Shown: in pieces, positions 29,190 to 53,091 of the stretch
How the letters are laid out: every line of letters starts with the position of its first letter
How positions within the stretch are numbered: position 1 is the stretch's first letter
NCBI GenBank assembly: GCA_963828495.1
Contig: CAWHFJ010000014.1
Location: 105,538-169,537, forward strand
DNA length: 64,000 nucleotides
DNA from: Candidatus Omnitrophota bacterium
GTDB taxonomy: Bacteria > Omnitrophota > Gorgyraeia > Zapsychrales > Fredricksoniimonadaceae
Reading direction: 5' to 3'
Position numbers and translations under genes: made by a program
Notes under the pieces: model-generated
The model's database searches: none
The model's input: only the letters and a program-made list of their open reading frames with translations
Told to the model about the DNA's origin: nothing

Positions 29190-32100
29190 TTATACAGGAA
29201 CTGTAGGCGCAGCCGAATTCTCCTGTGCACCTAAAAACTGCCTTAAATCCGTCATCGGCTGGATATTGATAATGACCGGCACAAAGCCCGGGGCGTTACG
29301 TAACTGTTCAAGCATGGCAGGGTCAAGGCGGAATTTGATCCCTGTTCCGGCATTTTGTGTCTGTAAATTCATATGAGCAGGGGTTAAGTCAATACCGCCG
29401 GTATTTGTCTTCATCGCCCGATTTGATTCTTGCCCGGCCGATTGGGTGCTATTCCTATTTTTATCATAATTTTCAACAATTTCTTTTAAAACAGCTCCCC
29501 ACCCTTTACCGCTATCTTCATCATAAACTTTAATAAACTCTATGTCCGGCATCATTTGCTTGAATGTATCAATAAGATGGTAATAATTTGGCCCTACGAC
29601 TATATACTTAACATCACTCATAGTATTAATAGCTCTCTGATCAACCCCGCCAATCAACATAAAACTTCCCATAAAAACCGATTGCAGGGGTGCCTCCTCA
29701 ATATTCCCAATAGGACCAGTATAAAAAGCTCGCGTTGGATCGATCCCATATTTTAGAAAATAAAGAAATTTCTCCAACCGTTGCTGTTTTGCTACACCAT
29801 GCGCTTGAAATCTTATTCCTATCTCATTAATAGGACCATGGGCCCGCATTTCTTCTTCGTCATTAAATCTCTGTGTGGGGCCTTGAATACGCTGATTCAA
29901 CGAATCTACTAAATGACGGATCTCTGCTTCTCTATTATTTTTTGTCTCCAGAAAAGCTGCAATTTCGCCTTTTTTATCGAGTTGGGACCACTCTGCTCTC
30001 ATGCCGTATTGGTACAATTTAGCTATATCGGCTTCCTCCAAATCATCTCTGCGGTCAATGTCACGAAAAGAAGTAAAATCATCCAAAACGAAAACAGGCT
30101 TTCCCTCCGGGGACATAAAAACTTGAAATTGTGAAGGGTAAAAATTCCTTGCTGAAGGCACCACCTTATCTCCTATTAAATTACTTAAAACATTTATTAA
30201 TTCACGGATCTCCTCAGAGTTTAACGATTCTTTTTCACTAAGTCTTTGTCCATGGATCGCCTTCACCCTAAGATAATAATAACCTTCTTGATTCTCCTGC
30301 CAAGCTTCTGTCTGTCCATAACCAATCACACCAGGCAATAAACCTTCTTGTTGAGCCAGGCCGTATGAATGTAATAAGGATCCCAAAGGATCATACGTCC
30401 GGCTTTTTCGATCAGAAAACAAATAAATATCTTCACCATCGTGCCGGAAAATATATAAACCGCCTCCTTCATAAATTAAACTACTTCTCAGATCATGGCC
30501 ATCAATGACAAGGTCTGCACCGTTTTGGCCAAATACAACTTTTCCTTTGATTGGATTAAACGGTATTTCATCATTTAAACGCACGGCCATCGCCTGATTC
30601 ACTATAGATTCCAGTTCCGGGGACACTGCGGCAGAATGGCTTACTTGTTCAATGGCCATCCTCGAAAATGATGAACCATTAAGGTCTTTAATGATCGTTT
30701 GATGTAAATCATAATATGGCCCTAACTCTGCATCACGATACCCAAGCTTTTGATAAAATCTGTCAAAATTAAGCCTGCCGACTTGTTGAGCATAAAATTG
30801 TTCTGCTCCTTCAAAATACGCTACCCGTTCAGCCAATCCCATCAAAGAACTTCCAATACCCTTATATCCGCCTTCATAAGAGCTGGTAACTTGGGGATCA
30901 ACAAAAATGGCATCAGAAGGTTGATACCGGTCAGTCCAAGCATCGGATGGGAATCCTATATCCATTAATGCAAAAATTTTCTTCAGGTTTCTGTTTATTG
31001 TGAAATGAACATATCCGATTTTTTGACCATCTAAATACACATCAATTAAATACCGATGACGATTGGATGTCTCTTTTTTCTGATACTTAAACTCAAAATG
31101 AGTGCCATCGCTGGCCGTTAGCGTGATCCCTTCAGAACTGCCCCTAATCCACCTCTGTACGGTCTCATTAATTTCAGCATCATGCGTATTCTGGATCATC
31201 GCCTGATCAGCAGTTACTTTATCAATTTTTTGTTTTGCGGCGACGGGGTCATTCATCCAGTCCTTACTGCCTTCCTCCTGGATCATCGTCCTTGCCAGAA
31301 GCAGGGCTTTTTCGACACTTCCTGCTTTATGAACAAAATATCGAGCTAAATACAACCCGATCGAATGGGAGATGATGTAGGGATCTTCCATTTTAACTAA
31401 ATCAGGTCGGCTTTTTAAGAATGCCTCTTGGGAGAGACTTTGATTAAAAAAGTCTCTTCCTATTTGGAAAAAAATAACCGGGATATCATTACCGCCTGCA
31501 ATTCTAGCCAATGCATCAAACATCTCATGAACACTGGAGTCTTTCTTGTTTTCCCTACCTGCCAGATTTTCAAACATTAAATGCCCTACTTCCGAAATAA
31601 CACCCCGCTCTCCATTATCGGGATCTATATTCAACAGATGCCTGGAACCAATCCGGTCATCCTCTAGGAAGGAACTGCCTTTCCCAAAACTAAGGTCATC
31701 TTCCGCTGTTCGCAGGGCGATATCCCAAAATTGATCTGACATGGACAATACATCAGACAATAAGGATTCGAGATTAATATTATGAGGATCCGTTGCAAAT
31801 TGCAGGCCTTCTGTCTTTAACATTAAAATATCTACTTCTAAACTCATTCTTTGCTCTTCAGAAATACTTTGCCCCTGATAGAATATATTCAGATAATTTA
31901 GAACTGTTTGAAGGAATTCTCCCTGTTTTTTTCTTATTCCAGTCGTATTTGATTTAACGACGAGTGCTGAATTCTTTATTTCTTGAATCCTGACATTATC
32001 CAGTCCATATAAATGAGCAAGCCAATCGATAGCATGTTCCACTTGGATTTTTAATTCCTTATCTTCCAAAGTATCTACGTCGCCATGGCGCATTATGAAA

Positions 32101-35100
32101 TCTTTCGATAACTTGACCTTTCGGGTTTTCCCCCGTCTTAGAAGATAATCAAAAGCCGTGCCGCTTTTTAATAACCCGTCTTTTTGTTGATTATATAAAG
32201 AATTTAATTCTGCCCTTAAATTTGGAGGCATTGCCACAACATCATTTTCATCTTGGGTGGCTTGAGAATCTTTCCATGCCACAAATTTTGATTCTAATTC
32301 GGGAAATAAAGTGCTCACAGCATCTGTTAGACTGTTGAGAGTGGATCTGCGCCGGATTTCAGCCCCTTCCAGCGCTCTTTTAACCCTATAAAGATCCTCT
32401 TCTATCGGATGGCCCCTTCTTAGAAATCCTGTAAATGTTTGAGGATCTTTAAAAACACTCAGAGGTATATTTTGTTGAGGGGAAGAGATCTCTGCCCGAT
32501 CAAGAGCCAATTGGGCGCTGTCCCCTGCATCGCCTAAAATCTTTAAAACAGTTACCCCCGGGAATATACTGTCCACATGTTTATGTCTGTTCCGCTCCAA
32601 AATAGAGTCCGCAATGCCATCCGGACTATCGTCCTCAGAGATGACATCCTTTTTCAATTCCGGGATCCCTGATGTCATAATCACAAAATCTCCCTCATCA
32701 ACTGGAATGTTTATTGATTCTATATCTCCTGAAACACTTTTACTCTCATCATACGCTCTAAGCTCACCGGATTTCTTAAAAACATATATACGATTCATGC
32801 TTTTATTCTGAACAATCGTAACAAATTGATGACCCTCCGGATCTTGCCAAGCCCCGGCAAGGTTGATATTGACTACTGTACGCAGTGCAGTCGGATTAAC
32901 TTTATAATAACGTCCTATCTGTTCTTCCCCGGCTTGAACAGCTTTTACCAGAAAACCTTCAATCTCTTCCAGGCTTTGGGACGCCTTGGCTTTTTGCCAT
33001 TCGCCCAATTCAGAATTAAAATATTCTCCAATGATATTGTAAACCTCTTTTGTTAATACAACACTGCTTCCGCTAACCAATTTAGCCCGCCCTTGCACCC
33101 TGTCAACATTCCCGAAAGTTTTTCTTAATTTCCCCAGTTCTTTAAATACCCCCAAAATGTACGATGAATCCGGTACTGCCGTCCATTCTAAAGTGGCATC
33201 CTGATTACGACTGCGGAAATATAGTCTGTATTTGCCCTCACCGGTGGGATCAACCCGGATCCTAAACTTTTTGCCTTCTTCATGCTTCACCCCTAATGAT
33301 ACATCTTCAAAGGATTCAGTAGATTCCTCACCTTTAGCTCGAAGCTCCATCCTTACCACTCCCTCTTTAACCCTAATAATATAAACACTATCACCAACTA
33401 CCACTTTGACTCCTTTTTTACCGAAAGTGACAAAATCAGACCTCTTTCTTGGAATAGAAAGCCATTGAGCAACTTCTTGTTGGGCTTCAAGGGCCCATTT
33501 GTTCCTCTCGCCTGCTTTCCAGAACAACTGTGCCCCCCTGTCAGGAGTATCTAATACTTTTAATTTTCCTGCTAATCCTGCCTTCATCATATTTTTTTCA
33601 GGGAAAATTATGTTTAAAGCAATATGATCCACCTGAACAACCCCACCTGGTACAATAGGATAAAGAAAAACTGGAACTGTTGGAAAATATCGATGATTCC
33701 TATAATAATTCCACATCATTTCATCATTGCCGAAGTCTTCTTCATTAATCATCGCCCGATCAAGAGCCAATTGGGCGCTGTCCCCATTTTTCCCGTTTTC
33801 TCCAGCCTTATTTCCCCTTCTCAATATCCGCGCAATATTCCCTAAACGCCATTTTGAAGTGCCGGGTTCTACAGTTAAATTTACGTTATCAGCAGATGAT
33901 GAAATAAATTTTGCTCTAAGTTGGGGAGTTGCACCAATAATCCTTAAAACGAATTCTTCTGCCACATATCGACATGTGCTCCTATATTCTTCCACTACTT
34001 GTGAACCCTTTTCTCCCAATTTCTTCGCCTCAGCCGGGCTTTCCATTAATTTTTGTAAATTAGCCCAGCTAAAATTTTTGATGGCTTTTCTTTTCTCTAG
34101 CTCTGTTTTTAGTTCTATATTATTCCCCCAATCTCCTGGAAGAACCAAAGTCGGGACCCCTGTAACGGCCGGCTCCGCAACATTCCTATCATGACCCAGC
34201 ACGTTTACAGTGCCCAAATTATATAATGCAGGAAGATCTCCCATAGTATCAACTACTAAAATATTACTATCTTTCACATCAACACCATGAATCCCCATAT
34301 TAGATTCCTGATGCTTTAGAGAGTCTTCCAAATAAGCCCAAGAATGATGACTGCCATAACGTTCCTGCAACCTTCTTCTTGCTTTGAGATCGGGAGGCTT
34401 AACTACAACTCTAAAAGCAAGGATGACCAAGGGACGCTGTCCTGCAGGAAGATCTCTATATAACAACGTTTCATTATTTTCTCCCTTTGTTGTCAGCGAA
34501 TCATATGCTTGCATAATTTCATCAAGCTCATCCATCATCCTGGGCGAACCGACAACCATTACTTTCCTTTCTAAACTTATACCTAAAGATTTTTTTATAC
34601 TATTTATTTTATATGGAGGGAGTTTTTCCGGAAGATCAAATTTTAACGGAACATTAGGCGCAGAAGCATAAGTCCGTCCCACAAAGGAATATACTGATAT
34701 ATCCCCGTACGTCCTAAAACCTACTTGAATTTTCTCTTTCTTAAAATCCCGAATCTGCTTTATAACGCTCCCCGGAGAAACTGTTTCAACGCTCTGTGGG
34801 TTCGTTATTTCATCATCATAATACAATGTTATGTTCTCTTTTTGAATACCCATTTCCCTTATAAGCCCTCTTGCAGCATTGATAGAGGCTACCCTATCTA
34901 ATTTTATAGCTAATTTTACCGAACTATCATTGATCGTCATTTTGATTTTTTGCAGCATACGATCAAGGCAAATTTCCGGATTATCAAGAAACCCCGAATT
35001 TTCTCTTAACAATGCTTTTTCAATAAAATTTTCCCCTCTTCCTTCTTTTTTATAAGCAGGATCCTCGGCAACGCCTCTGTTAAGAGCATCAAATATACGG

Positions 35101-36695
35101 AATAATTCTTCCAACTGCTCAACTTTCCAGTTAGCTATTTCATATGCGGCAGCAGGTTCATCATTTAATATCGCAAGCATTTTTAAATAATAAGATAGAC
35201 GGCTTTCCGAAAGCTTTCTTCCATATACCTTTCGGAACATAGCCTCAACTTCTTCTCTGGCAACCCCTCCTTCTTTGGCAACAAGCCTTTGCGAAAAATT
35301 GCTTAACCATTCCTTAAATTTCCCATAACTAGTTTGTTCTCTACTTTCACTCTCTTGTCCTTCAGTATTTATTGCCTGCTTTTCGACCAATGGAACTTTA
35401 TTCTCTATTTCAATCTTCTTTTCTGAAGTGCGGTTAAATATTCGATCTATAACTTTTTTAATTGAAAACATGGCAAGATCTGCGCTCACTATGCTGTACT
35501 TTTGAACATCATCTGACGTCGAAGCTGGAAGATTATGAACTATCTCCATCGCAAAATTAGACTTTAAATTAGTTTCCCCGTTCATAGCAAAATCAAAATT
35601 GACTCCCCCCGAAAAATACTTTCTGGGGATCACTTGTTGGGTCAGTAGATCCGGTTCTTCTTTGATATAGTTGTAAACGCCTTTTTTAAATGCCTGTAGA
35701 TACCGCTCATAAATCTTCTGTTTTTCCTGCGGATCATCAATATTTACACCTGCGACTTTATTTTTGTCTGAATATATTTGAGACAAAATGCTATCCTTAA
35801 CTTTCTTTTTGTACCATGTGGCTAAGATGAGACTGTTGTAGGCCTGACGGAGTTTGGCGAAATTTTTGTCCTCATTAACCTCTTTGGTTAATTCGGGGAT
35901 AACAATTTCGCGGACGATTTGGGAGCCTAAAGCATTGATGCCTCCCCCTTCATGGGAGAGTGGATCATTATCCGTATGTTTTTTTAATGATAAATAATCC
36001 TCCTCCAGCATCACCTTTAATTTGCTTTCAACCACATACGCCGTCCCGGCTTGGGCATTTTCGTACACAACAGCTTTTTCTGGCACTATCCATACCTTAT
36101 TAAACGTATTGACCGGAATATTGGTTGTGCCAAATTTTTTGGCTGCTTCTTCATAGATGCGTTTCCAAAATTTCTTGCCTGTTTTATCTTCAGGATAAAT
36201 CAAACTCGCTGTGATCTGCTTAAGCATGTAGTCTTCTGCTAATAAATCCCGGCCCATTTCGGTTAGGCCAAAGCTTTGGGGAATGATACGGTCTTTTTCA
36301 TATGGGCTTAAATTGACCCACAGGTCTTTTTCGGGAATGGTTAGGCTGGCAAGGAAATACTTTATTAGTTTTGTGGCTTCCTCTTTCAAACTCCCTCTAT
36401 CCCCCTCTTTAACTAAATAGGGGGAATCTCCTTGATCTAAAATAAAATCAAAACGGAATGGGTTATCTGAATTTACTTTGATGCCTTTTAATATGGGAGG
36501 ATTAAATTCCGGGCTTAAATGAACCATGACCCCGGGGGCCGGCAAACGAAATTCCCCGCCTGCCCCACCTGTGGTGGGGCCTGTCCACGAAGCATTTTGA
36601 GCTTGGGCCGTCGGTAGTGGACCCAACGCATTAGACAGAAAGGCGAGGATTATAACTAAAGAGATAACTTTTCTTATATCTAAATTTTCTCCCAT
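29190..36695 (-). CDS. giant (2,501 aa) multidomain protein of unknown function with a signal peptide
   Basis: A single uninterrupted 7,506-nt ORF. The N-terminus MGENLDIRKVISLVIILAFLSNALGPLPTAQAQ looks like a Sec signal peptide. Embedded motifs resemble a GT30/WaaA C-terminal half (PLKFD.., ILVVDTMGDLPALY, HDRNVAEPA) and a GNAT domain (GGYKGIGSSLMGLAE..FYQKLGY). The C-terminus is GGIDLTPAHMNLQTQ..PVIINIQP..FLG. Confidence 0.9.
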   Translation of the reverse strand: MGENLDIRKVISLVIILAFLSNALGPLPTAQAQNASWTGPTTGGAGGEFRLPAPGVMVHLSPEFNPPILKGIKVNSDNPFRFDFILDQGDSPYLVKEGDRGSLKEEATKLIKYFLASLTIPEKDLWVNLSPYEKDRIIPQSFGLTEMGRDLLAEDYMLKQITASLIYPEDKTGKKFWKRIYEEAAKKFGTTNIPVNTFNKVWIVPEKAVVYENAQAGTAYVVESKLKVMLEEDYLSLKKHTDNDPLSHEGGGINALGSQIVREIVIPELTKEVNEDKNFAKLRQAYNSLILATWYKKKVKDSILSQIYSDKNKVAGVNIDDPQEKQKIYERYLQAFKKGVYNYIKEEPDLLTQQVIPRKYFSGGVNFDFAMNGETNLKSNFAMEIVHNLPASTSDDVQKYSIVSADLAMFSIKKVIDRIFNRTSEKKIEIENKVPLVEKQAINTEGQESESREQTSYGKFKEWLSNFSQRLVAKEGGVAREEVEAMFRKVYGRKLSESRLSYYLKMLAILNDEPAAAYEIANWKVEQLEELFRIFDALNRGVAEDPAYKKEGRGENFIEKALLRENSGFLDNPEICLDRMLQKIKMTINDSSVKLAIKLDRVASINAARGLIREMGIQKENITLYYDDEITNPQSVETVSPGSVIKQIRDFKKEKIQVGFRTYGDISVYSFVGRTYASAPNVPLKFDLPEKLPPYKINSIKKSLGISLERKVMVVGSPRMMDELDEIMQAYDSLTTKGENNETLLYRDLPAGQRPLVILAFRVVVKPPDLKARRRLQERYGSHHSWAYLEDSLKHQESNMGIHGVDVKDSNILVVDTMGDLPALYNLGTVNVLGHDRNVAEPAVTGVPTLVLPGDWGNNIELKTELEKRKAIKNFSWANLQKLMESPAEAKKLGEKGSQVVEEYRSTCRYVAEEFVLRIIGATPQLRAKFISSSADNVNLTVEPGTSKWRLGNIARILRRGNKAGENGKNGDSAQLALDRAMINEEDFGNDEMMWNYYRNHRYFPTVPVFLYPIVPGGVVQVDHIALNIIFPEKNMMKAGLAGKLKVLDTPDRGAQLFWKAGERNKWALEAQQEVAQWLSIPRKRSDFVTFGKKGVKVVVGDSVYIIRVKEGVVRMELRAKGEESTESFEDVSLGVKHEEGKKFRIRVDPTGEGKYRLYFRSRNQDATLEWTAVPDSSYILGVFKELGKLRKTFGNVDRVQGRAKLVSGSSVVLTKEVYNIIGEYFNSELGEWQKAKASQSLEEIEGFLVKAVQAGEEQIGRYYKVNPTALRTVVNINLAGAWQDPEGHQFVTIVQNKSMNRIYVFKKSGELRAYDESKSVSGDIESINIPVDEGDFVIMTSGIPELKKDVISEDDSPDGIADSILERNRHKHVDSIFPGVTVLKILGDAGDSAQLALDRAEISSPQQNIPLSVFKDPQTFTGFLRRGHPIEEDLYRVKRALEGAEIRRRSTLNSLTDAVSTLFPELESKFVAWKDSQATQDENDVVAMPPNLRAELNSLYNQQKDGLLKSGTAFDYLLRRGKTRKVKLSKDFIMRHGDVDTLEDKELKIQVEHAIDWLAHLYGLDNVRIQEIKNSALVVKSNTTGIRKKQGEFLQTVLNYLNIFYQGQSISEEQRMSLEVDILMLKTEGLQFATDPHNINLESLLSDVLSMSDQFWDIALRTAEDDLSFGKGSSFLEDDRIGSRHLLNIDPDNGERGVISEVGHLMFENLAGRENKKDSSVHEMFDALARIAGGNDIPVIFFQIGRDFFNQSLSQEAFLKSRPDLVKMEDPYIISHSIGLYLARYFVHKAGSVEKALLLARTMIQEEGSKDWMNDPVAAKQKIDKVTADQAMIQNTHDAEINETVQRWIRGSSEGITLTASDGTHFEFKYQKKETSNRHRYLIDVYLDGQKIGYVHFTINRNLKKIFALMDIGFPSDAWTDRYQPSDAIFVDPQVTSSYEGGYKGIGSSLMGLAERVAYFEGAEQFYAQQVGRLNFDRFYQKLGYRDAELGPYYDLHQTIIKDLNGSSFSRMAIEQVSHSAAVSPELESIVNQAMAVRLNDEIPFNPIKGKVVFGQNGADLVIDGHDLRSSLIYEGGGLYIFRHDGEDIYLFSDRKSRTYDPLGSLLHSYGLAQQEGLLPGVIGYGQTEAWQENQEGYYYLRVKAIHGQRLSEKESLNSEEIRELINVLSNLIGDKVVPSARNFYPSQFQVFMSPEGKPVFVLDDFTSFRDIDRRDDLEEADIAKLYQYGMRAEWSQLDKKGEIAAFLETKNNREAEIRHLVDSLNQRIQGPTQRFNDEEEMRAHGPINEIGIRFQAHGVAKQQRLEKFLYFLKYGIDPTRAFYTGPIGNIEEAPLQSVFMGSFMLIGGVDQRAINTMSDVKYIVVGPNYYHLIDTFKQMMPDIEFIKVYDEDSGKGWGAVLKEIVENYDKNRNSTQSAGQESNRAMKTNTGGIDLTPAHMNLQTQNAGTGIKFRLDPAMLEQLRNAPGFVPVIINIQPMTDLRQFLGAQENSAAPTVPV
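32494..32525. repeat. 32-nt exact direct repeat, copy 2 (within the giant ORF)
   Basis: gcccgatcaagagccaattgggcgctgtcccc is identical to 33754-33785. In frame on the minus strand it encodes GDSAQLALDRA (aa 1391-1401). Confidence 0.95.
33754..33785. repeat. 32-nt exact direct repeat, copy 1 (within the giant ORF)
   Basis: Identical to 32494-32525. Encodes GDSAQLALDRA (aa 971-981). The spacing is exactly 1,260 nt, or 420 codons. Confidence 0.95.
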
Positions 36696-44594: not shown

Positions 44595-46010
44595 CTAGGC
44601 CGATGTTTTCTCAACCGTAATGATGTGCGGCGTCAAAAAAATCAGCAATTCGGTCCTGGTGACCGTGGTGTTGGTGCTGCTGAAAAAAAGCTTGCCCAGC
44701 CAAGGGATGTCCCCCAAGAGAGGGACTTTGTTCTTGACGACGACCTTGTTATCGCTAATCAAGCCCGCGATCACCAGGGTTTTGCCGTTTTCCACCATCA
44801 CCCTGGTTTGGGTTTCTTGATCATTGATTTCCGGTATTTGTACCGGCGGATTCGTCGTCGTGCCCTGCGCCAAAGTCACCATTTGGTTAATCGCTGATAT
44901 CTGAGGATGCAAATCCAATGTTATCAATCCCGCGTTGTTCACATGTGGTGTAACCTCAAAAATAATACCTATAGGTTTATACGTAAATCCATCAATTTCT
45001 TGCTGCCCCGTCTGGGAATTAAACGTATAATTCGGCAACGGATATTCAACCCCCACGTTAAATGTCGCCTTCTGATTGTCCAGCGTCACGATACGCGGAT
45101 TGGAAAGGGTTTTCGTATGCTGATGATTGCTCAAAGCGGCCAGGGTGGCGGAAAATGTTGAAGCATTGATTGTCCCATAAGTAAATCCCGGCGTTGTTGA
45201 AGTGGATAAAACTGGGGCAGGCGCTTGTGCAAAAGTATTATTGGCCGGAAAAAATGAACCGCTCCCACCGCTATTGCTTCCAAAACCTTTTGATGTAAAA
45301 GGGAAAGTCGTCGGTTGCGTGGCCCCTGTTATACTCACCTGGGCCACCCAATCTATCCCCAAAGTATCCGTATTGTTGATATCTGTTTCAATGACCTTGG
45401 TTTCAATCAACACCTGCGGCGTGATGGTGTCAATAGATTTGATCACTTCCGCTATCAATTCCACATTGCTTTCCGGATCCCTGACAATAAGTGCATTTGT
45501 GCGCTCATCAAAATTGACAAAACCGCGGGCACTTTTCATTTTCTCAACGACCTTCATCACGTCCGCGGCTTTGGCAAAGGAAAGAACGAACGTTCTAGAA
45601 ACCAGGGACTCTTCGGCTTGCAGGGTTGTAGAATCTTCACGGTATTTTTTTAGATTTTCAACGGTCATGACCGTGATGATATTGCCACGGCGTTCATAGC
45701 CATACCCATAAGTGGATAGAATCACATCCAACGCCTTCTGCCAGGGCACATCGTTTAATTGAATGGTGACCACACCGGTCACATCGGGCGCGGCCACAAT
45801 ATTCACCCCGCTTTTAAAGGCCAGCACCTTCAAAACGCTTTTGATGTCCGCGTCCTGAAAATCCAGACTGACAATCCCGCTGTCGGACATCTTAACCTGG
45901 TCAGCAGCGGAAGACGTATTATCCGCCCCCGCAAAGACCCAACCTGCAGACAAAAAAGCCACCGTCCCTACTATCAACCGCACAGTATTCAATACAGGTA
46001 TCCGCATCAC
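44595..46010 (-). CDS. pilQ: type IV pilus secretin PilQ
   Basis: 471 aa with a signal peptide. The N0-like domain contains SLDFQDADIKSVLKVLA. The secretin C-terminus contains VPLLGDIPWLGKLF..RTELLIFLTPHII. Confidence 0.92.
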   Translation of the reverse strand: MMRIPVLNTVRLIVGTVAFLSAGWVFAGADNTSSAADQVKMSDSGIVSLDFQDADIKSVLKVLAFKSGVNIVAAPDVTGVVTIQLNDVPWQKALDVILSTYGYGYERRGNIITVMTVENLKKYREDSTTLQAEESLVSRTFVLSFAKAADVMKVVEKMKSARGFVNFDERTNALIVRDPESNVELIAEVIKSIDTITPQVLIETKVIETDINNTDTLGIDWVAQVSITGATQPTTFPFTSKGFGSNSGGSGSFFPANNTFAQAPAPVLSTSTTPGFTYGTINASTFSATLAALSNHQHTKTLSNPRIVTLDNQKATFNVGVEYPLPNYTFNSQTGQQEIDGFTYKPIGIIFEVTPHVNNAGLITLDLHPQISAINQMVTLAQGTTTNPPVQIPEINDQETQTRVMVENGKTLVIAGLISDNKVVVKNKVPLLGDIPWLGKLFFSSTNTTVTRTELLIFLTPHIITVEKTSA

Positions 46011-46354
46011 ATACCTCCCTTTTTCAATCCCAATGTAACCCTTTGTGTCCCTTGTAAGAATTCTACACGATCAGAAGCAATCACATCAACGACATAAGGA
46101 CCGATGTGGTCATGGACCTTAACGACTTTGCCGTTGACGATAGCCACGTTATTCCCCTTCGCGTCCGCCACAATCCCCTCTAAAGTCAAATCAGTGACGG
46201 TCAAATCCGCATCATAAGCCACTAACATCCCTGCCGAAGATACCAACGGCGCAAAAGGATCACGCTTGGCGTGATCATCGTACACGAAGCTCTGTTCTTG
46301 GGCATAACTGAAAGGGACCGCTATGAATGCTATCAAAAAAATAAAAACTCTCAT
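46007..46354 (-). CDS. PilP-like small periplasmic pilus assembly protein
   Basis: 115 aa with signal peptide MRVFIFLIAFIAVPFSYAQE. The pattern LTLEGIVADAKGNNVAIVNGKVVKVHDHIG resembles the PilP/GspC HR domain. Start and stop are both 4-nt coupled, to pilO and pilQ. Confidence 0.65.
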   Translation of the reverse strand: MRVFIFLIAFIAVPFSYAQEQSFVYDDHAKRDPFAPLVSSAGMLVAYDADLTVTDLTLEGIVADAKGNNVAIVNGKVVKVHDHIGPYVVDVIASDRVEFLQGTQRVTLGLKKGGM

Positions 46355-46962
46355 AAATTTTTAGATGGGGCTGTTGGCTTATCCACCAAGATAATGTTGA
46401 TCGTCAAAGAAAATAAATGTATACGCGGGTTTTTCTCATCGTCTTGGACAAGCAGGTCCTTCAAGCTAAAATATAAATCTTCATTCTCCAACTTGTTTAA
46501 GAAACGCCCAAACATATGATACCCGCAACGCGCCTGAATCACAATAGGTAAAGCATAATAATGACCGTCCTCTGATTTGGTCAAACTTTCCTGTTCTTGC
46601 TTTTGCGGCACCAACTTGTCGATTTTAACGTCATATTCATTGGCAATGCGGGAAATAGTCTCCAGAATGGCCGGGACTTCCTGCAGGGGCCTGATCTTGA
46701 TGTTCATCGCCTCCAATGTTAAACGGGTCTGCTCCAAGCTTTTTTTAAGCTGATCGATTCTTTGTTTATCCGTCACAACCTGCGCGGTATCTGTCGACAA
46801 TGTCTTGATTTGATCATTAATATCGGAGATGCTCCCGCATTGAGGCAAAACCAATAAAAACACATCCAAAAGCAAAACCAACACAACCACACCGCCGAGT
46901 ATGGAATAACGTGCCTGCTCGTTTAAATTGTTAAAAGCCTCAAAAATTTTACTCAAGTCCAT
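46351..46962 (-). CDS. pilO: type IV pilus assembly protein PilO
   Basis: 203 aa. One N-terminal TM segment, then a coiled coil, then a ferredoxin-like C-terminal region. Position lies between pilN and the pilP-like gene. Confidence 0.8.
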   Translation of the reverse strand: MDLSKIFEAFNNLNEQARYSILGGVVVLVLLLDVFLLVLPQCGSISDINDQIKTLSTDTAQVVTDKQRIDQLKKSLEQTRLTLEAMNIKIRPLQEVPAILETISRIANEYDVKIDKLVPQKQEQESLTKSEDGHYYALPIVIQARCGYHMFGRFLNKLENEDLYFSLKDLLVQDDEKNPRIHLFSLTINIILVDKPTAPSKNL

Positions 46963-46990
46963 TTTTATATTCCCTAAAGACCCTTCGGGG

Positions 46991-47575
46991 TCATTTTAAT
47001 TTCGCCATGACGGTAAAATCCGCCACCTCAATAGAGTTCCTTTTGCCCCGCTGGATGGAATTGACTTCCAGCGAGGAAAAATCCTTCATAAAAACTTCAT
47101 TTTTCTTTAAAGCGGACACAAAATTCCCCACATTGGTAATTTCGTCATGATTTTTGGATACGGCACTCCCCTCCATCGTCAGACTGCTTTTATCTAAAAC
47201 CATTTTCCTCAACCACAAGCCTCTGGGCAAAGCATCACTGATGGCATTAAGCTTGGGAGACCACACTAAGGTTTTCTTGACCGCCATATCAGAAATGGCG
47301 TTGATTTTCTTTCTTAATTCCCGGGACTTACCGGAAATAGCGTCCAATTCATTTTTATCGGATGCCACCTTCTGCCATTGTAACTTCTCCAAAGACAAAT
47401 GCCCGGCGGTCATCAACCACCACGCCCCTAGAACCAAATGGACCGTTAAAATCAAAAAAACCACCCCTCCCGCCACCCCCAAAAGAATTTCCTGGGGGAT
47501 GTTAATCGAGAGAACCGACAGCCCGCCGCCGCTCTTTTTTCTAAGCGCAAGGGGAATTAAATTAATATTAATCAT
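46991..47575 (-). CDS. pilN: type IV pilus assembly protein PilN
   Basis: The ATG at 47575 (MININLIPLALRKK) forms an ATGA overlap with the pilM stop. One TM segment. The track ORF begins at the GTG at 47584. Confidence 0.82.
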   Translation of the reverse strand: MININLIPLALRKKSGGGLSVLSINIPQEILLGVAGGVVFLILTVHLVLGAWWLMTAGHLSLEKLQWQKVASDKNELDAISGKSRELRKKINAISDMAVKKTLVWSPKLNAISDALPRGLWLRKMVLDKSSLTMEGSAVSKNHDEITNVGNFVSALKKNEVFMKDFSSLEVNSIQRGKRNSIEVADFTVMAKLK

Positions 47576-48624
47576 GGATTGCACCCCAATCCTAAGGCAA
47601 CAGAAAACTGTACGGCATGACTCTGCATGTCGCCGGAACCCTCAGGCGTATGTAAATGCGCATGGGCCAGGGGGTCCCAAATTTTGACCCGCACTCCCAA
47701 ATTTTTCTCAAAGACGCCTTCCATGCCCTTCAATAATGAACCTCCGCCGCTTAAAAACAGCTCGTCCACCTGAACATTTTTCTCGGTCATAAAATAGTCC
47801 ATCGACAAACGGATTTCGGTGATCAGATTATTGATCGGCGTATCGCATGCATCCATGACTTGCTCTAACTTGTCCCCCGGATTGCATTTGATGGTCTCCG
47901 CTTGTTTGTCATCCACCCCCAAAGTATTGGCAATTTGCTTAGTCAACTCTTGACTGCCGACGAATATATCCCTGGCAAAACGCATGGATGAATTTTTAAA
48001 AATCATCAGAGAACTGATGGAACTGCCGATATCCAATACGGCTTGAGCATTGCCCGGGACACCCGCCGCCGGCCCCAGACACTTAAAGGCATTGGCTATA
48101 GCAATGGAGTTGAGGGTCAAACGATCCAACTCCAGACCTGCTTCTTTAAACAATTTTAAACGTTCATCCACCATTTCTTTTTTGACAGCCGCCAGCAAAA
48201 CAAACATTTTTTTATCTTTGCTTTCGGGATCTAAAATGGCACAGTCCGTATAAATGCTCTGGGGTTCAAAAGGAAGATATTTGTCCAAATCAAACACAAA
48301 AGATTTGCGTAAATCATCCAACGACATCCGGGGCATATCCAAATAGCGGAGCAATGAGCCTTTACCGGAAACCGCGGAAACCAAAACCTGATCATTCAAA
48401 TGCAGACGTTCGACAATTTTTTTTAAAGCCGCTTTTGAGTCGCCCCCTGCAATAGGCTCGATGGCCCAGCGGCGTATCTCCATCTTCCCGGCCAATGTCT
48501 CCACTTCCACCGCTTTGACGAAGCTGGTACCGATATCAATACCGACAACAGGAAGGGCTGCCGGCTTGGGGACCAAACGGTTGATTACTGTCAAGTATTG
48601 ATCAAATAAATTTTTAAAATTCAT
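47572..48624 (-). CDS. pilM: type IV pilus assembly protein PilM (actin-like ATPase fold)
   Basis: 350 aa. Contains VGIDIGTSFVKAVEV and ..LSGGGSLLKG... Confidence 0.9.
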   Translation of the reverse strand: MNFKNLFDQYLTVINRLVPKPAALPVVGIDIGTSFVKAVEVETLAGKMEIRRWAIEPIAGGDSKAALKKIVERLHLNDQVLVSAVSGKGSLLRYLDMPRMSLDDLRKSFVFDLDKYLPFEPQSIYTDCAILDPESKDKKMFVLLAAVKKEMVDERLKLFKEAGLELDRLTLNSIAIANAFKCLGPAAGVPGNAQAVLDIGSSISSLMIFKNSSMRFARDIFVGSQELTKQIANTLGVDDKQAETIKCNPGDKLEQVMDACDTPINNLITEIRLSMDYFMTEKNVQVDELFLSGGGSLLKGMEGVFEKNLGVRVKIWDPLAHAHLHTPEGSGDMQSHAVQFSVALGLGCNP

Positions 48625-48654
48625 AAATATATTCTAACAGTGTTGAGGTGATTT

Positions 48655-49614
48655 TCAAGGTTGCTGTTTAATTAACATTTCCAAAGAGGATTTACGTTTG
48701 TCTAAAACAACCATTTGAGAACGTAAATCATCCAAATCAGCTTTTAATCCGGCCTCCTGGCGCTTCAAATCATTCACACTGCCCTCCAATTGGCCCTGTT
48801 CGGCATGCTGACTGCCGGTCATCTGAGTCCTTGGGAATTTTGGGCCCATTTGTTTTAATAAATTCTTAAGCTGAGTATAATTTTGTTCCAATTTTCTTAA
48901 CTCCAACTCCAAAGCACCAAGCTGTGTATCATCCCATTGGGAGGAAGGTGAAGTCACGATTTGGCCTTCCAAATCCTTGATCTGTTCTTTTAAGACCTGC
49001 TGGTACGCCAAAAGACCGGCCGCAGAGGGCACAGGTGTTTGTTTTTCATAATCCAGGATGGAGGCATGCAGCGACTCTTGCCTGGCTTGGCTATCATAAA
49101 TCATTTTCATCAATTGTAATTTTTCTTTCTGTCGACGAGCTTCAAGCGGAGATTCTGCGTTTGGGGAAGACGGCAGGCCTTGCATGTCATTCATCTGCCG
49201 GAGTAACTGTTCGCGCTCTTGGTAGCCTGCCTGCAGGGCACCTTGAAGGGACTTGATCGCCTCAAGGGTCTTTTGAGTACGGTTATCTAAATCAAGGCTT
49301 TCTTCTTGTAAACGGGAAATCTGTTGGGCGCGGCGGGGATTATCACTGCGCAATCTCGCCGCCGTTTTATTTAAAAGGTCCTCTTGCTGCCGCAATTGCC
49401 CCAACTGGGCCTGCCATTGCTCAATGTCTTGTTTGACGGCATTGTTTTGAAGTGTTAGTCGCTGGTTATCCGCAGTCAATTGTTCGACGCTTTGTTTTAA
49501 ATGAGACAACACCTCTTGCAAGGCATCCGTCGCATAGGTCACATCATCCTGGGCCCAACAGCCCACAGGAAGCCCCGCCAATAGTACCGCCAGAAAAAAT
49601 TTACTGTATTTCAT
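48655..49614 (-). CDS. exported Gln/Leu-rich coiled-coil protein, function unknown
   Basis: 319 aa with signal peptide MKYSKFFLAVLLAGLPVGCWAQDD. The rest is almost entirely heptad-like (..QLRQQEDLLNKTAARLR.., ..LELELRKLEQNYTQLKNLLKQ..). Lies between pilC and pilM. Confidence 0.8.
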   Translation of the reverse strand: MKYSKFFLAVLLAGLPVGCWAQDDVTYATDALQEVLSHLKQSVEQLTADNQRLTLQNNAVKQDIEQWQAQLGQLRQQEDLLNKTAARLRSDNPRRAQQISRLQEESLDLDNRTQKTLEAIKSLQGALQAGYQEREQLLRQMNDMQGLPSSPNAESPLEARRQKEKLQLMKMIYDSQARQESLHASILDYEKQTPVPSAAGLLAYQQVLKEQIKDLEGQIVTSPSSQWDDTQLGALELELRKLEQNYTQLKNLLKQMGPKFPRTQMTGSQHAEQGQLEGSVNDLKRQEAGLKADLDDLRSQMVVLDKRKSSLEMLIKQQP

Positions 49615-49619
49615 AAATT

Positions 49620-50840
49620 TTATTTTTGAAGGGCCGATGTCATGCTCAAAATCGGCATAAACAACGCAATAACAACAAATCCTATCACAATCCCTAAAAA
49701 TCCTATAATTAAGGGTTCAATCAATTTGGTCAAGCCCTCCACCGCCGTATCCACCTGATCGTCGTAAAACTCCGCTACCTTAGCCAGCATCTTTTCTAAT
49801 TGCCCGGATTTTTCTCCTATCGCAATCATGCGCGTGACCATCAGCGGGAAAATGGGACTTTTAGATAAAGGCACCGCGATACTCTCGCCTCCCCTGACAC
49901 TGACTTTGATCTCATCGACTAAAAGTTCAATCACACGGTTCCCGCAAGTCTTGCCGACGATATCCAAGGATTCCAAAATAGGCACGCCGCTTTGACTTAA
50001 AGTGGCGAAGGTCCTGCAAAAACGGCTGACCGAAACCTTACAAATCAAATCCCCAAAAATCGGCAGCTTCAAAAGCCAAGTGTCTACCTGAAGATGGCCG
50101 ACAGGTGTCTGCCTATACTTGTTAAAGAAAAAACCCAAAACAACAATACCGGCAATGAGAAATAGAAGGTCATGTTGCAATAAACTGCTAAAATTGATCA
50201 ACAATTGGGTCATGGCCGGCAGCTCTTGCCCCAAAGAGGCATAAATCTGGGCAAAAGTAGGAACGACTTTCACTAACAGCCCTATCGTGATGATCATCGC
50301 CATGCTCACCACCACCGCCGGATAAATCATGGCCCCCTGCACCTTTTGACGCAGCTTATTGCTTTTTTCTAAATACCCGGATATCCGCTCAAGAATGTCC
50401 GTCAAAATACCGGCGCTTTCCCCGACCCGGATCATGTTGACATACAATGGGTCAAAAATCTTGGGATGTTTAGAAAAAGCACTGGAAAGGCTGCTGCCTA
50501 ATTGTATGTCTTCCCGGATAGAAAGAAGCGCCTGTCGGAATGAAACATTCGAGGTTTGTTCACTCAGAGCTTCCAAGGACTGCAAAATGGGTATCCCTGC
50601 ATCCACCATCGTGGCAAACTGGCGGGTGAAAACAACTAAATCTTCCGGCTTAACTTTTTTACCCCCACGGGATTTGACGCCGGATTTTTTAAAACCCGAT
50701 TCTTTTTCTTCCGCAATACCGAGAATGATCAAATTGCGCTTGCGCAGCTCGGCAACGATCATCGCTTCGCTTTCCGCGGCAATTTTACCGCTGACGTTTT
50801 TACCCTCTTGGTCACGCGCTGTATATTTATACGTTGGCAT
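49620..50840 (-). CDS. pilC: type IV pilus platform protein PilC (GspF family)
   Basis: 406 aa. Duplicated GspF domains with three TM segments. Confidence 0.92.
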   Translation of the reverse strand: MPTYKYTARDQEGKNVSGKIAAESEAMIVAELRKRNLIILGIAEEKESGFKKSGVKSRGGKKVKPEDLVVFTRQFATMVDAGIPILQSLEALSEQTSNVSFRQALLSIREDIQLGSSLSSAFSKHPKIFDPLYVNMIRVGESAGILTDILERISGYLEKSNKLRQKVQGAMIYPAVVVSMAMIITIGLLVKVVPTFAQIYASLGQELPAMTQLLINFSSLLQHDLLFLIAGIVVLGFFFNKYRQTPVGHLQVDTWLLKLPIFGDLICKVSVSRFCRTFATLSQSGVPILESLDIVGKTCGNRVIELLVDEIKVSVRGGESIAVPLSKSPIFPLMVTRMIAIGEKSGQLEKMLAKVAEFYDDQVDTAVEGLTKLIEPLIIGFLGIVIGFVVIALFMPILSMTSALQK

Positions 50841-50884
50841 TTTGGGCCCTCAACTGCCTTGCCCCCTCTCTAACAGGGGAATAT

Positions 50885-51367: not shown

Positions 51368-51391
51368 ACAAACGCCCCTAACCCTTCTTTT

Positions 51392-53089: not shown

Positions 53090-53091
53090 AT

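What the first reader, a model, noticed from the sequence alone, without database searches (positions are those of the whole stretch)
33936..34649. WaaA/KdtA (GT30)-like C-terminal half-domain inside the giant protein
Residues about 683-920 align by eye to the second half of Kdo transferase.
- PLKFDLPE matches G(S/N)LKFD.
- ERKVMVVGSPRMMDELDE matches RPVWIAASTHEGEE.
- RPLVILAFRVVVKPPD matches LLLILVPRHPERF.
- ILVVDTMGDLPALYNLG matches VVVGDTMGELMLLYGIA.
- GHDRNVAEPAVTGVPTLV matches GGHNPLEAAAHAIPVLMG.

I cannot recognise the N-terminal (acceptor-side) Rossmann half upstream of this region. A nucleotide-sugar-binding half fused into an exported giant protein is not a standard arrangement.
Basis: partly seen in the sequence, partly recalled or inferred. 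Interest (0 to 1): 0.55.

Follow-up and report, generated by a model that had tools for sequence, protein, structure and literature searches.

The report
WaaA-like module in Omnitrophota polyprotein
A 2,501-residue exported protein of an Omnitrophota-type bacterium carries a conserved, unannotated domain whose second half is a true but distant relative of the sugar-donor-binding half of the lipopolysaccharide enzyme WaaA, joined to a shrunken first half; it is one of many swappable enzyme cassettes in this protein family.

Summary
Residues 683-905 of the 2,501-aa ORF (window 29190-36695, minus strand) are homologous to the C-terminal CMP-Kdo-binding domain of WaaA (GT30). Profile-profile probability is 99.6%, E 1.6e-24. 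The module profile hits PDB 2XCI at E 2.3e-9 and true WaaAs at E 1e-15 in 5.8 billion proteins. A confident AF2 model has WaaA as its top Foldseek hit.

It is not an isolated half-domain. It is the C-half of a ~440-aa module (aa ~470-935): a helical bundle, a reduced alpha/beta N-subdomain and the WaaA-like Rossmann domain.

I found 64 copies. Some sit in other long Omnitrophota-type proteins and some are stand-alone ~330-aa proteins inside glycan gene clusters (GT2, GT4, GT9, ABC-2 exporter). No Pfam model covers the module.

All WaaA CMP-contacting residues are kept (R762, M818/G819/L821, N838, E841), as is the LKFD lysine (K685). The WaaA N-domain SxGE motif is absent.

The host protein has a signal peptide, is almost cysteine-free, and belongs to a family of over 2,500 proteins with conserved ends and shuffled enzyme cargo.

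Most likely function: a divergent CMP-sugar-dependent transferase cargo domain. Its acceptor and site of action are unknown.

The parts
29190..36695 (-). Host ORF, 2501 aa: signal peptide, conserved N-domain, five cargo cassettes, conserved C-terminal tail
   Evidence: The identical protein is present in NCBI/ENA assemblies (P0199).
36597..36695 (-). Sec-type signal peptide, aa 1-33 (MGENLDIRKVISLVIILAFLSNALGPLPTAQA|Q). It is the only hydrophobic segment in the protein.
   Evidence: Hydropathy scan. The same n-h-AxA pattern occurs in relatives. This is an inference; no dedicated predictor was run.
35496..36596 (-). Family-defining N-terminal domain, aa ~34-400 (48-80% identical in relatives). 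Fold unknown.
   Evidence: The AF2 model was poor (pLDDT 50). No PDB or Pfam match.
34926..35288 (-). Helical bundle at the start of the module, aa 470-590. Present in the ~20 closest (long-protein) copies and absent from stand-alone copies.
   Evidence: Model helices H11-120, pLDDT 75-93.
34650..34925 (-). Reduced alpha/beta N-subdomain, aa 591-682 (beta-alpha-beta-alpha-beta-alpha-beta plus hairpin). It holds 'RVASINAA' where WaaA has SxGE.
   Evidence: Model strands E126-130, 153-157, 175-178, 187-192, 198-211, pLDDT 85-95. No significant match to the WaaA N-domain. Forced local alignment gives E 0.0033, Prob 9.8%.
33891..34649 (-). WaaA-like C-terminal Rossmann domain plus closing helices, aa 683-935. 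The finding's 33936-34649 lies within it.
34641..34643 (-). K685 of PLKFD. It aligns with the invariant K208 of E. coli WaaA (LKFD) and is kept in 63/64 copies.
34410..34412 (-). R762 (LAFR). It aligns with R212 of A. aeolicus WaaA, a CMP phosphate ligand, and is kept in 57/64 copies.
   Evidence: Residue roles are from review PMC6286764.
34233..34250 (-). DTMGDL, aa 816-821. M818/G819/L821 align with the F247/G248/L250 cytosine pocket. G819 is kept in 64/64 copies. Position 820 is E in 63/64 copies and D only in this one.
34170..34187 (-). RNVAEP, aa 837-842. N838 aligns with N273 (phosphate) and E841 with E276 (ribose). It is preceded by a 6-7-residue deletion relative to the WaaA GG(S/T)xxxxGGHN loop.
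33754..33785 (.). First copy of a perfect 32-nt direct repeat. It encodes the junction peptide GDSAQLALDRA (aa 971-981) just after the module.
   Evidence: 0 expected by chance
32494..32525 (.). Second copy of the 32-nt repeat (aa 1391-1401). The two copies bracket cassette B.
29193..29438 (-). Conserved C-terminal tail (NRAMKTNTGGIDL...), aa 2420-2501. It is always at the extreme C-terminus in relatives.

Best explanation
Residues ~470-935 of the ORF form one conserved cargo module. Its core (aa ~591-935) is a divergent GT-B-type enzyme descended from, or sharing ancestry with, the Kdo transferase WaaA (GT30).

Shown:
- The C-terminal Rossmann domain is homologous to the WaaA CMP-Kdo-binding domain.
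- It keeps every residue that contacts CMP in A. aeolicus WaaA: R762, M818/G819/L821, N838 and E841. It also keeps the LKFD lysine, K685.
- These positions are near-invariant across 64 copies.
- The acceptor-side half is replaced by a much smaller alpha/beta subdomain without the WaaA SxGE, ETELWP or membrane-binding features.
- The module is a recurrent cassette in signal-peptide-bearing, cysteine-purged Omnitrophota proteins with conserved N- and C-terminal ends.
- Stand-alone ~330-aa versions lie in glycan-assembly gene clusters.

Inferred:
- The module binds a cytidine-monophosphate-activated ulosonic-acid-type sugar (CMP-Kdo or a relative) in the cleft between the two subdomains.
- It transfers the sugar to an acceptor that is not lipid A. 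In the stand-alone enzymes the acceptor would be a glycan intermediate. In the long proteins it is unknown.
- The host protein is exported and no CMP-sugar exists outside a cytoplasm. The cargo version would therefore have to act inside another cell (prey or host) after delivery, or otherwise serve as a binding module.
- This particular copy may have altered or weakened activity. It deviates at positions conserved in its relatives (E601R, R789L, E820D) and sits in an atypical place in the protein.

The confidence of 0.55 is for the whole statement. By step it is about 0.95 for homology and fold, 0.6 for nucleotide binding, 0.5 for catalysis by the family, 0.35 for catalysis by this copy, and 0.15-0.2 for action inside another cell.
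For: Homology:
- hhalign Prob 99.6%, E 1.6e-24.
- PDB profile hits 2xci at 2.3e-9 and 4bfc at 1.1e-7.
- 27/27 members hit NCBIfam WaaA models, best 6.6e-15.
- The profile finds PF04413-bearing WaaAs at 1e-15.

Fold:
- AF2 mean pLDDT 84.7, pTM 0.82.
- Foldseek top hit is WaaA 2xci at E 1.7e-6. The 4bfc C-domain gives TM 0.71. All 46 hits with E<=1e-3 are GT-B enzymes.

Active-site retention:
- K685 63/64, R762 57/64, G819 64/64, E/D820 64/64, L821 56/64, N838 61/64, E841 62/64.
- Residue roles are from PMC6286764.

Family:
- 81 representatives with E<=1e-3, and several proteins carry two copies.

Glycan context of stand-alone members, in three independent contigs:
- GT2, GNAT, polysaccharide deacetylase, GT9 and GT4 genes nearby.
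- An ABC_tran plus ABC2_membrane pair directly downstream of one of them.

Export signature:
- Signal peptide and no other hydrophobic segment.
- Cys is 0.08% in this protein against 0.86% in the window's other proteins (p 2e-7). The family mean is 0.12%, and the stand-alone enzymes are at 0.69%.
Against: - No biochemical data exist for any member.
- The WaaA residues needed on the acceptor side (G30/E31 of SxGE, E98) have no demonstrable counterpart. The forced alignment puts S/A at the E31 position.
- The 6-7-residue deletion in the glycine loop before N838 could change or abolish donor binding.
- This copy deviates at 4 of 31 strongly conserved columns, while its nearest relatives deviate at 0-1. 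It also lacks the E601 found in 44/64 copies.
- An exported protein has no access to CMP-sugars unless it is delivered into another cell, and nothing here shows delivery.
Confidence: 0.55

Rival explanations
1. Pseudo-enzyme or binding module. The WaaA-derived domain no longer catalyses transfer. It serves in the exported protein as a nucleotide-, Kdo- or glycan-binding unit, or as a structural unit, for example to recognise envelope glycans of a prey cell.
For: - No equivalent of the WaaA E31/G30 catalytic motif, and the acceptor domain is shrunken.
- The host protein is Sec-exported and Cys-purged, so donor sugar would be unavailable.
- This copy has lost E601, R789 and E820.
Against: - The residues that are most strictly conserved are exactly the phosphate and ribose ligands (R762, N838, E841, K685). 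A glycan-binding role does not require them.
- Stand-alone relatives sit among glycosyltransferase genes, as enzymes do.
Confidence: 0.25
2. It is the organism's ordinary lipid A Kdo transferase (WaaA) that happens to be fused into a large protein.
For: The closest characterised family by sequence and by fold is WaaA.
Against: - Scores are far below the family cut-offs: 27 bits against 438.
- No PF04413 N-domain, no N-terminal membrane helix, and no SxGE or ETELWP motifs.
- The module occurs twice in some proteins and in only a small minority of family members.
- It lies behind a signal peptide, on the wrong side of the membrane for lipid IVA and CMP-Kdo.
Confidence: 0.03
3. It is a generic GT-B glycosyltransferase (GT4, GT1 or GT9-like, or a TagF-like CDP-glycerol transferase), with only incidental resemblance to WaaA.
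For: - Foldseek also returns EarP, TreT, TagF, OGT, WaaG and MurG at E 1e-6 to 1e-3.
- One member has a marginal Glyco_trans_1_2 hit at E 0.047.
Against: - Every significant sequence hit is to WaaA models or structures. Other GT families reach at best E 0.003-0.07, and only in single members.
- The WaaA-specific motifs LKFD, DTxGEL and (H/R)NxxEP are aligned in register.
Confidence: 0.07
4. The resemblance is chance, or the ORF is an artefact.
For: Pfam gives no hit, and the word-indexed search of the region found nothing.
Against: - Multiple independent significant statistics.
- 64 conserved copies.
- An intact 7.5-kb ORF recovered identically in independent assemblies.
Confidence: 0.01

Closest known systems
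[quoted passage not shown]
   Same: - Homologous C-terminal Rossmann domain.
- The motifs LKFD, (P/F)R, DTxGEL and (H/R)NxxEP are in register.
- All CMP-contacting residues are kept.
- It is the best hit by both sequence profile and fold.
   Different: - The N-domain is about half the size and not detectably homologous. There is no PF04413, no SxGE or ETELWP motif, and no membrane anchor.
- A 6-7-residue deletion in the glycine loop before the conserved Asn.
- The module has conserved residues of its own: DRN, W856, N859 and F660.
- It is embedded behind a signal peptide in a multi-cassette protein.
- Scores are about 10-fold below the family cut-offs.
Omnitrophota long or giant 'multi-enzyme' proteins (Nielsen & Lui 2026, bioRxiv 10.64898/2026.06.07.730766; West-Roberts et al. 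2023, bioRxiv 10.1101/2023.11.21.568195; Seymour et al. 2023, PMC10066038)
   Same: - Signal peptide or membrane targeting combined with many cytoplasmic-type enzyme domains in one polypeptide (methyltransferase, GNAT, HATPase, glycosyltransferase, PGM).
- Large Pfam-dark regions.
- A type IV pilus/T2SS cluster nearby.
   Different: - This protein is 2.5 kaa, below the >=10 kaa cut-offs of those surveys.
- Its family is defined by a conserved ~370-aa N-domain and ~75-aa C-tail, which I did not find described in the passages I read.
- The WaaA-like module has no Pfam model, so it is invisible to those catalogues.
Other Kdo transferases acting on non-lipid-A acceptors with ABC-transporter-dependent glycans (WbbB GT99; KpsS/KpsC GT107). 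This comparison is from general knowledge and from PMC12887879 and PMC11231755, which appeared; I read only their titles and abstract openings.
   Same: Stand-alone relatives of the module sit next to ABC-2 exporter genes and GT clusters. This is the genomic setting in which those enzymes work.
   Different: Those enzymes are retaining beta-Kdo transferases unrelated in sequence to GT30. No similarity to them was detected here, and they were not specifically tested.
Modular polymorphic toxins and effectors (MARTX, Rhs/CDI-type cassette proteins). This is an analogy from general knowledge.
   Same: Conserved delivery-type ends with highly variable enzymatic cargo. Repeats at cassette junctions could mediate cassette exchange.
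   Different: No sequence or domain similarity to those systems. No cognate immunity gene, processing protease or secretion system was identified.

Membership tests
GT30 / WaaA (Kdo transferase) | C-terminal donor domain with the LKFD Lys, PRH Arg, DTxGEL and GGHNxxEP motifs that bind CMP | tested here: met
   K685, R762, T817-L821, N838 and E841 align in register and are near-invariant in 64 copies. Modifications: FR in place of PR, DRN in place of GHN, and a loop shortened by 6-7 residues.
GT30 / WaaA (Kdo transferase) | N-terminal domain Pfam PF04413 (Glycos_transf_N) with SxGE, ETELWP and the E98-equivalent | tested here: not met
   No Pfam hit in this copy or in any of 27 members. hhalign aligns only the C-half. 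A forced local alignment is not significant (Prob 9.8%) and puts RVAS/EVAS opposite SVGE.
GT30 / WaaA (Kdo transferase) | Reaches the curated family score (NCBIfam equivalog cut-offs 363-524 bits) | tested here: not met
   27.2 bits against a cut-off of 438.
GT30 / WaaA (Kdo transferase) | N-terminal membrane anchor or hydrophobic patch, acting at the cytoplasmic face on lipid IVA | tested here: not met
   No hydrophobic segment in or next to the module. The only one in the protein is the N-terminal signal peptide.
GT30 / WaaA (Kdo transferase) | Transfers Kdo from CMP-Kdo | not testable with these tools
   Needs biochemistry.
GT-B fold glycosyltransferases | Two facing Rossmann-like alpha/beta domains with C-terminal helices crossing back | tested here: inconclusive
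   The C-domain clearly meets this (4bfc TM 0.71). Whole-model Foldseek alignments to GT-B enzymes span 380-450 columns, and all 46 significant hits are GT-B. The N-subdomain has only about 4 parallel strands plus a hairpin by DSSP, and I could not superpose coordinates.
Omnitrophota signal-peptide / N-domain / cargo / C-tail protein family (unnamed) | Conserved N-terminal ~370 aa after a signal peptide, and a conserved ~75-aa tail at the extreme C-terminus | tested here: met
   2546 hits share the N-domain at 50-80% identity. Of ~195 proteins held, about 133 match the N-domain and about 108 match the tail.
Mini-WaaA module family (defined here) | Module-specific conserved columns (31 columns at >=80% identity) | tested here: met
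   The window copy matches 27 of 31. Its deviations are I713M, R789L, L815V and E820D.

The most novel reading that the evidence does not exclude
The module represents an undescribed family of 'mini-WaaA' transferases with a complete CMP-ulosonic-acid donor site and a minimal acceptor domain. Omnitrophota have recruited it, purged of cysteines, as an exchangeable cargo cassette of Sec-exported effector polyproteins. These would be delivered into prey or host cells and use the victim's CMP-Kdo-type pool to modify or sabotage envelope or protein targets. Cassettes would be swapped by recombination at conserved junction-coding repeats ([D/N]xA[Q/M]; a perfect 32-nt repeat pair in this gene) and possibly released by cleavage at those junctions.
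Probability: 0.12. Interest if true: 0.8.

Novelty: new variant of a known kind. Interest (0 to 1): 0.45.

Why it matters
- It puts a name and a testable ligand hypothesis (a CMP-activated sugar) on a stretch of Pfam-dark sequence. That stretch recurs in the enigmatic long proteins of Omnitrophota, a phylum of ultra-small, probably predatory or parasitic bacteria whose big proteins are largely unannotated.
- It defines a compact relative of the essential LPS enzyme WaaA that keeps the donor site but has a minimal acceptor domain. This is useful for understanding how GT-B acceptor specificity evolves. It also gives a small scaffold for studying CMP-Kdo recognition.
- Three observations together give concrete handles on how these polyproteins are built and where they act: the cysteine-purged cargo copies against the normal stand-alone copies, the junction motif, and the 32-nt repeats bracketing a cassette.

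Tried and rejected
- Pfam on the whole protein, on aa 600-950 and on 27 family members gave no family.
- Single-sequence phmmer against the PDB gave only noise, peroxiredoxins at E~1.
- The word-indexed homologue search of aa 500-980 found nothing. With the module alignment it found only three true WaaAs and none of the family. Family members were reached only by the exhaustive HMMER search.
- PDB searches for cassettes B, C and D/E of the protein found nothing significant.
- The AF2 model of the family N-terminal domain was too poor to use (pLDDT 50). Its profile has no PDB relative. Export therefore rests on the signal-peptide pattern and the cysteine depletion only.
The narrower alignment used one strict pattern (G[HNY]DRN[LI]FEP) and returned only 7 loci. 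That is a lower bound and is biased towards close relatives.
- Contexts of two stand-alone or short homologues (P0167, P0185) and of one ~540-aa homologue (P0174) were uninformative. Pfam on ten ~540-600-aa homologues found nothing in their N-terminal extensions.
- I considered that 'GGIDL' was a general linker motif. I rejected this because it is simply the start of the C-terminal tail, which directly follows the module in most relatives.
Full report
**1. What is at the coordinates**

The finding lies inside a single intact ORF, window 29190..36695 on the minus strand, 2501 aa. Residues 683-920 map exactly to 33936-34649.

The flanking genes are housekeeping. Downstream of the ORF are ribosomal protein S1, a class I W/Y-family tRNA synthetase (PF00579), NusG, L1, rpoB/C-sized ORFs and EF-G/EF-Tu-sized ORFs. 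Upstream are a PlsC-type acyltransferase, phosphoglucomutase, a cytidylyltransferase-like protein (PF01467), an aldehyde-dehydrogenase-family protein (PF00171), an amino-acid-kinase-family protein (PF00696) and Obg. A type IV pilus cluster (PilQ/M/C and two PilB) lies 8-18 kb further on. The gene is lower in G+C (0.38-0.41) than its surroundings (0.45-0.51).

**2. Is the WaaA resemblance real?**

Yes, by several independent measures.

- Pfam finds nothing in the protein apart from a sub-threshold GNAT match at aa 1870-1987.
- NCBIfam's WaaA equivalog model NF004388 matches aa 808-907 at E 1.3e-6.
- BLASTP against E. coli K-12 WaaA aligns ILVVDTMGDLPALYNLG...GHDRNVAEPAVTGVPTLVLP with VVVGDTMGELMLLYGIA...GGHNPLEAAAHAIPVLMGP at E 0.002.
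- An exhaustive phmmer search of aa 470-970 against 1.84 billion representatives found 81 proteins at E<=1e-3. One is a bona fide 437-aa WaaA (P0188), at E 8e-5, matched collinearly in two stretches: LKFD...GSxxxxE and DTxGEL...GGHNxxEP.
- I aligned 27 copies of the region (A1). All 27 hit NCBIfam WaaA models, best 6.6e-15, and none hits any Pfam family.
- The A1 profile hits PDB 2xci_A (A. aeolicus WaaA) at E 2.3e-9 and 4bfc_A (A. baumannii WaaA C-terminal CMP-Kdo-binding domain) at 1.1e-7.
- In a 5.8-billion-protein database the A1 profile retrieves PF04413-bearing Kdo transferases at E 1e-15.
- Profile-profile comparison with five true WaaAs (A2) gives probability 99.6%, E 1.6e-24 over 189 columns: module aa 683-905 against E. 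coli WaaA 206-406.
- tblastn of true WaaAs against the whole window hits only this region. No canonical waaA is in the window.

**3. Structure**

AlphaFold2 on A1 (aa 470-960) gave mean pLDDT 84.7 and pTM 0.82, with pLDDT above 90 over most of aa 590-930.

Foldseek against the PDB puts A. aeolicus WaaA first (2xci, E 1.7e-6). The isolated WaaA C-domain 4bfc aligns with TM 0.71 normalised to the target. All 46 hits at E<=1e-3 are GT-B enzymes, including EarP, TreT, TagF, OGT, WaaG, MurG and UDP-GlcNAc 2-epimerase.

Alignments to full-length GT-B proteins span 380-450 columns, so both halves of the targets are covered. The model's secondary structure has three parts:

- a helical bundle (aa ~470-590);
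- a small beta-alpha-beta-alpha-beta-alpha-beta unit plus a hairpin (aa ~595-680);
- a classical Rossmann domain with long closing helices (aa ~683-931).

**4. The N-half**

There is no PF04413, and hhalign aligns only the C-half.

A forced local hhalign of the N-subdomain against the WaaA N-domain is not significant (E 0.0033 for one comparison, probability 9.8%). It does put strand 1, the loop and helix 1 in register, with module (E/R)VAS opposite WaaA SVGE. The Gly30/Glu31 pair that mutagenesis showed to be important in A. aeolicus WaaA (review PMC6286764) therefore has no counterpart. The family instead has a Glu two residues earlier (E601 in 44/64 copies), and in the window copy this is Arg.

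**5. Donor site**

Residue roles below come from the review's summary of the 2XCU complex. Numbering follows the 2xci chain, which is native numbering plus 21, worked out.

| A. aeolicus WaaA | Role | This ORF | Conservation in 64 copies |
|---|---|---|---|
| P211 | cytosine N4 (backbone O) | F761 | variable side chain (backbone contact) |
| R212 | phosphate | R762 | 57/64 |
| F247 / G248 / L250 | cytosine pocket | M818 / G819 / L821 | position 818 variable; G819 64/64; L821 56/64 |
| N273 | phosphate | N838 | 61/64 |
| E276 | ribose | E841 | 62/64 |

The invariant Lys of LKFD (E. coli K208) corresponds to K685, kept in 63/64 copies. I presume this is A. aeolicus K162.

Differences from WaaA:

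- a 6-7-residue deletion of the GG(S/T)xxxxGG loop, leaving G-x-D-R-N;
- family-specific conserved residues F660, R710, E723, R754/P755, D836/R837, W856 and N859.

Selection has therefore preserved a CMP-type nucleotide pocket.

**6. The module family**

The conserved unit is ~440 aa in the closest relatives (30-43% identity). Its ~320-aa core also occurs in three other settings:

- in other very long proteins, up to 5094 aa;
- as the C-terminal domain of ~530-810-aa proteins whose N-terminal extensions have no Pfam match;
- as stand-alone 320-345-aa proteins.

Some proteins carry two copies (P0005, P0009, P0139).

Three stand-alone members from independent contigs lie in glycan-assembly clusters.

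- P0175 sits beside GT9, PqqD, GT2, a ~520-aa GNAT, a polysaccharide deacetylase and GT4.
- P0190 is followed directly by ABC_tran plus ABC2_membrane and a large GT2, with GT9, a TylF-type methyltransferase, a sulfotransferase and GT4 nearby.
- A 'Planctomycetia'-labelled MAG has GT2, GNAT, deacetylase, GT2, the mini-WaaA, GNATs and GT9 in that order.

This is the setting expected for a working glycosyltransferase. The link with GT9 (the heptosyltransferase family that follows WaaA in LPS core synthesis) and with ABC-2 exporters fits a Kdo-like donor, but that is inference.

A strict-pattern scan of GTDB representative genomes found 7 loci, in Omnitrophota and PVC-labelled MAGs. This is a lower bound.

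**7. The host protein**

A search with the whole protein returned 2546 hits, largely unnamed; those that carry a source name are Candidatus Omnitrophica/Omnitrophota MAG proteins. They share only the first ~16% of the query at 50-80% identity. Their middles carry very different Pfam domains, including methyltransferases, GNAT, HATPase_c, GGDEF, PEP-utilising, M48/ABC1, HEAT, WD40 and GT4.

Mapping all held proteins onto the ORF shows three features:

- a conserved N-domain (aa ~30-390);
- a conserved ~75-aa tail that is always at the extreme C-terminus (aa ~2420-2495);
- cassettes in between that are shared with only a few relatives each.

The cassettes are:

| Cassette | Residues | Shared with |
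|---|---|---|
| WaaA-like | 470-935 | the 64-copy family above |
| B | ~984-1390 | six of the held proteins |
| C | ~1404-1829 | one of the held proteins (P0060) |
| D (GNAT-like) | ~1837-2032 | four of the held proteins |
| E | ~2040-2424 | none |

The only hydrophobic segment is an N-terminal signal peptide ending AQA|Q, a pattern shared by relatives.

The protein has 2 Cys in 2501 residues (0.08%). The other 40 ORFs of the window have 0.86% (binomial p 2e-7). The family mean is 0.12%, whereas the stand-alone mini-WaaAs have a normal 0.69%. Cysteine purging is what one expects of proteins that function outside the cytoplasm or are translocated unfolded.

In 9 of 11 relatives where both are detected, the WaaA-like module directly abuts the C-tail. 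In many others it is the last domain of the protein. In the window protein it is instead the first cassette, ~1500 residues from the tail. It also deviates at 4 of 31 strongly conserved columns (I713M, R789L, L815V, E820D), while its closest relatives deviate at 0-1.

**8. How it most likely works**

Shown: a GT30-related donor domain with an intact CMP pocket, a minimal partner subdomain, a recurrent cassette, an exported and Cys-poor carrier, and stand-alone relatives in glycan clusters.

Inferred: the module binds a CMP-activated ulosonic-acid sugar between its two subdomains and transfers it to a non-lipid-A acceptor.

CMP-sugars exist only in a cytoplasm. An exported cargo copy could therefore work only after delivery into another cell. 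That would suit the proposed predatory or parasitic lifestyle of Omnitrophota (PMC10066038; 10.1101/2023.11.21.568195). Otherwise it acts as a binding module.

My confidence in each step:

| Claim | Confidence |
|---|---|
| Homology and fold | ~0.95 |
| Nucleotide binding | ~0.6 |
| Catalytic transfer by the family | ~0.5 |
| Catalytic transfer by this particular copy | ~0.35 |
| Action inside another cell | ~0.15-0.2 |

**9. Comparison with what is known**

Membership in GT30 proper fails on three tested criteria: the N-domain, the family score and the membrane anchor. It passes on the donor-domain motifs. I therefore call it a distinct family related to GT30, not a WaaA.

Cytoplasm-type enzymes, glycosyltransferases among them, inside signal-peptide-bearing long proteins are already documented for Omnitrophota (10.64898/2026.06.07.730766). 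The fusion as such is not new. What is new is the identification of this Pfam-dark cassette, its stand-alone relatives, and the contrast in cysteine content and position.

**10. Verdict**

I rate it a new variant of a known kind, of moderate interest.

Noticed in passing
window 32494-32525 and 33754-33785: A perfect 32-nt direct repeat (GCCCGATCAAGAGCCAATTGGGCGCTGTCCCC; none expected by chance), with copies 1260 nt apart. On the coding strand both copies encode GDSAQLALDRA (aa 971-981 and 1391-1401) and they bracket cassette B exactly. This looks like a footprint of cassette insertion or a substrate for cassette loss by recombination.
   Followed up: partly
giant ORF aa 368-410, 971-983, 1391-1403, ~1830, ~2033, ~2425 (window ~35466-35592, 33747-33785, 32487-32525, ~31206, ~30597, ~29421): Every cassette border carries a short [D/N]-x-A-[Q/M] motif: DFAM, NFAM, DLAM, DSAQ...DRAM, DSAQ...DRAE, DQAM, NQAM, NRAM. 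Relatives show DSAQ, DPAQ and DKAQ at the equivalent borders. It may be a processing site or a recombination joint. This was not tested.
   Followed up: partly
giant ORF aa 30-390 and 2420-2495 (window 35526-36608 and 29211-29438): These ends define a very large, apparently undescribed protein family: more than 2500 hits, largely unnamed, the named ones from Candidatus Omnitrophica/Omnitrophota. Members have a conserved N-domain and a conserved C-terminal tail (TGGIDL...FRLDPAMLEQL...) around highly variable enzyme cargo. Neither end matches Pfam, NCBIfam or the PDB, and AF2 could not fold the N-domain.
   Followed up: partly
whole giant ORF, window 29190-36695: Extreme cysteine depletion. There are 2 Cys in 2501 aa (0.08%), against 0.86% in the other 40 ORFs of the window (p 2e-7). 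The mean of 120 family members is 0.12%, and stand-alone homologues of the WaaA-like module have 0.69%.
   Followed up: yes
window ~36395-36425 (minus strand), aa ~90-103: An in-frame palindrome, TCCCCCT-N11-AGGGGGA, encodes SPYLVKEGDRGS in a variable loop of the N-domain. Relatives carry other palindrome-like peptides in the same or other loops (SPSLVKEGDRGS, VIPAKAGIQ, LPLVGRVREGG). This suggests small repeat elements inserted in frame.
   Followed up: no
giant ORF aa 470-935 compared with relatives: In 9 of 11 relatives with a detectable tail, the WaaA-like module directly precedes the C-terminal tail, and in many others it is the last domain. Here it is the first cassette. This copy also deviates at conserved positions (E601R, R789L, E820D, I713M, L815V) and has private insertions (aa ~733-745 and ~775-800, the latter with low pLDDT).
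   Followed up: yes
L002 8001-8996, L004/L005 8001-9008, L017 5977-6996: Stand-alone ~330-aa homologues sit in a recurring neighbourhood: GT2, a ~520-aa GNAT, a polysaccharide deacetylase, the mini-WaaA, then GNATs, GT9 and GT4, with a PqqD-like gene. One is followed by an ABC-2 exporter pair, with a sulfotransferase and a TylF methyltransferase nearby. This looks like an uncharacterised glycan pathway in PVC-type bacteria.
   Followed up: partly
proteins P0145, P0148, P0153, P0161, P0170, P0174, P0178, P0180, P0193; L011: A class of 530-600-aa proteins carries the module at the C-terminus behind a ~200-aa helical, Pfam-free extension. Several have Lys/Asn/Ile-rich, low-complexity sequences suggestive of low-G+C genomes, and they look effector-like. 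Their taxonomy and context are unresolved.
   Followed up: partly
window 44595-54813: A type IV pilus/T2SS-like cluster (PilQ secretin, PilM, PilC/GspF, two PilB/GspE ATPases) lies 8-18 kb from the long gene. Published surveys report such clusters next to Omnitrophota giant genes.
   Followed up: no
window 30001-36000: The long gene is markedly lower in G+C (0.38-0.41) and has stronger negative GC skew than the flanking housekeeping genes (0.45-0.51). This could mean foreign origin or relaxed codon or compositional constraint.
   Followed up: no
giant ORF aa 1870-1987 (window ~30735-31088): A sub-threshold GNAT acetyltransferase match (PF13508 E 0.03, PF00583 E 0.066) in cassette D. This cassette is shared with P0008, P0011 and P0074, and P0008 carries precomputed GNAT Pfam domains. 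Cassette D is therefore probably a real, divergent GNAT.
   Followed up: partly
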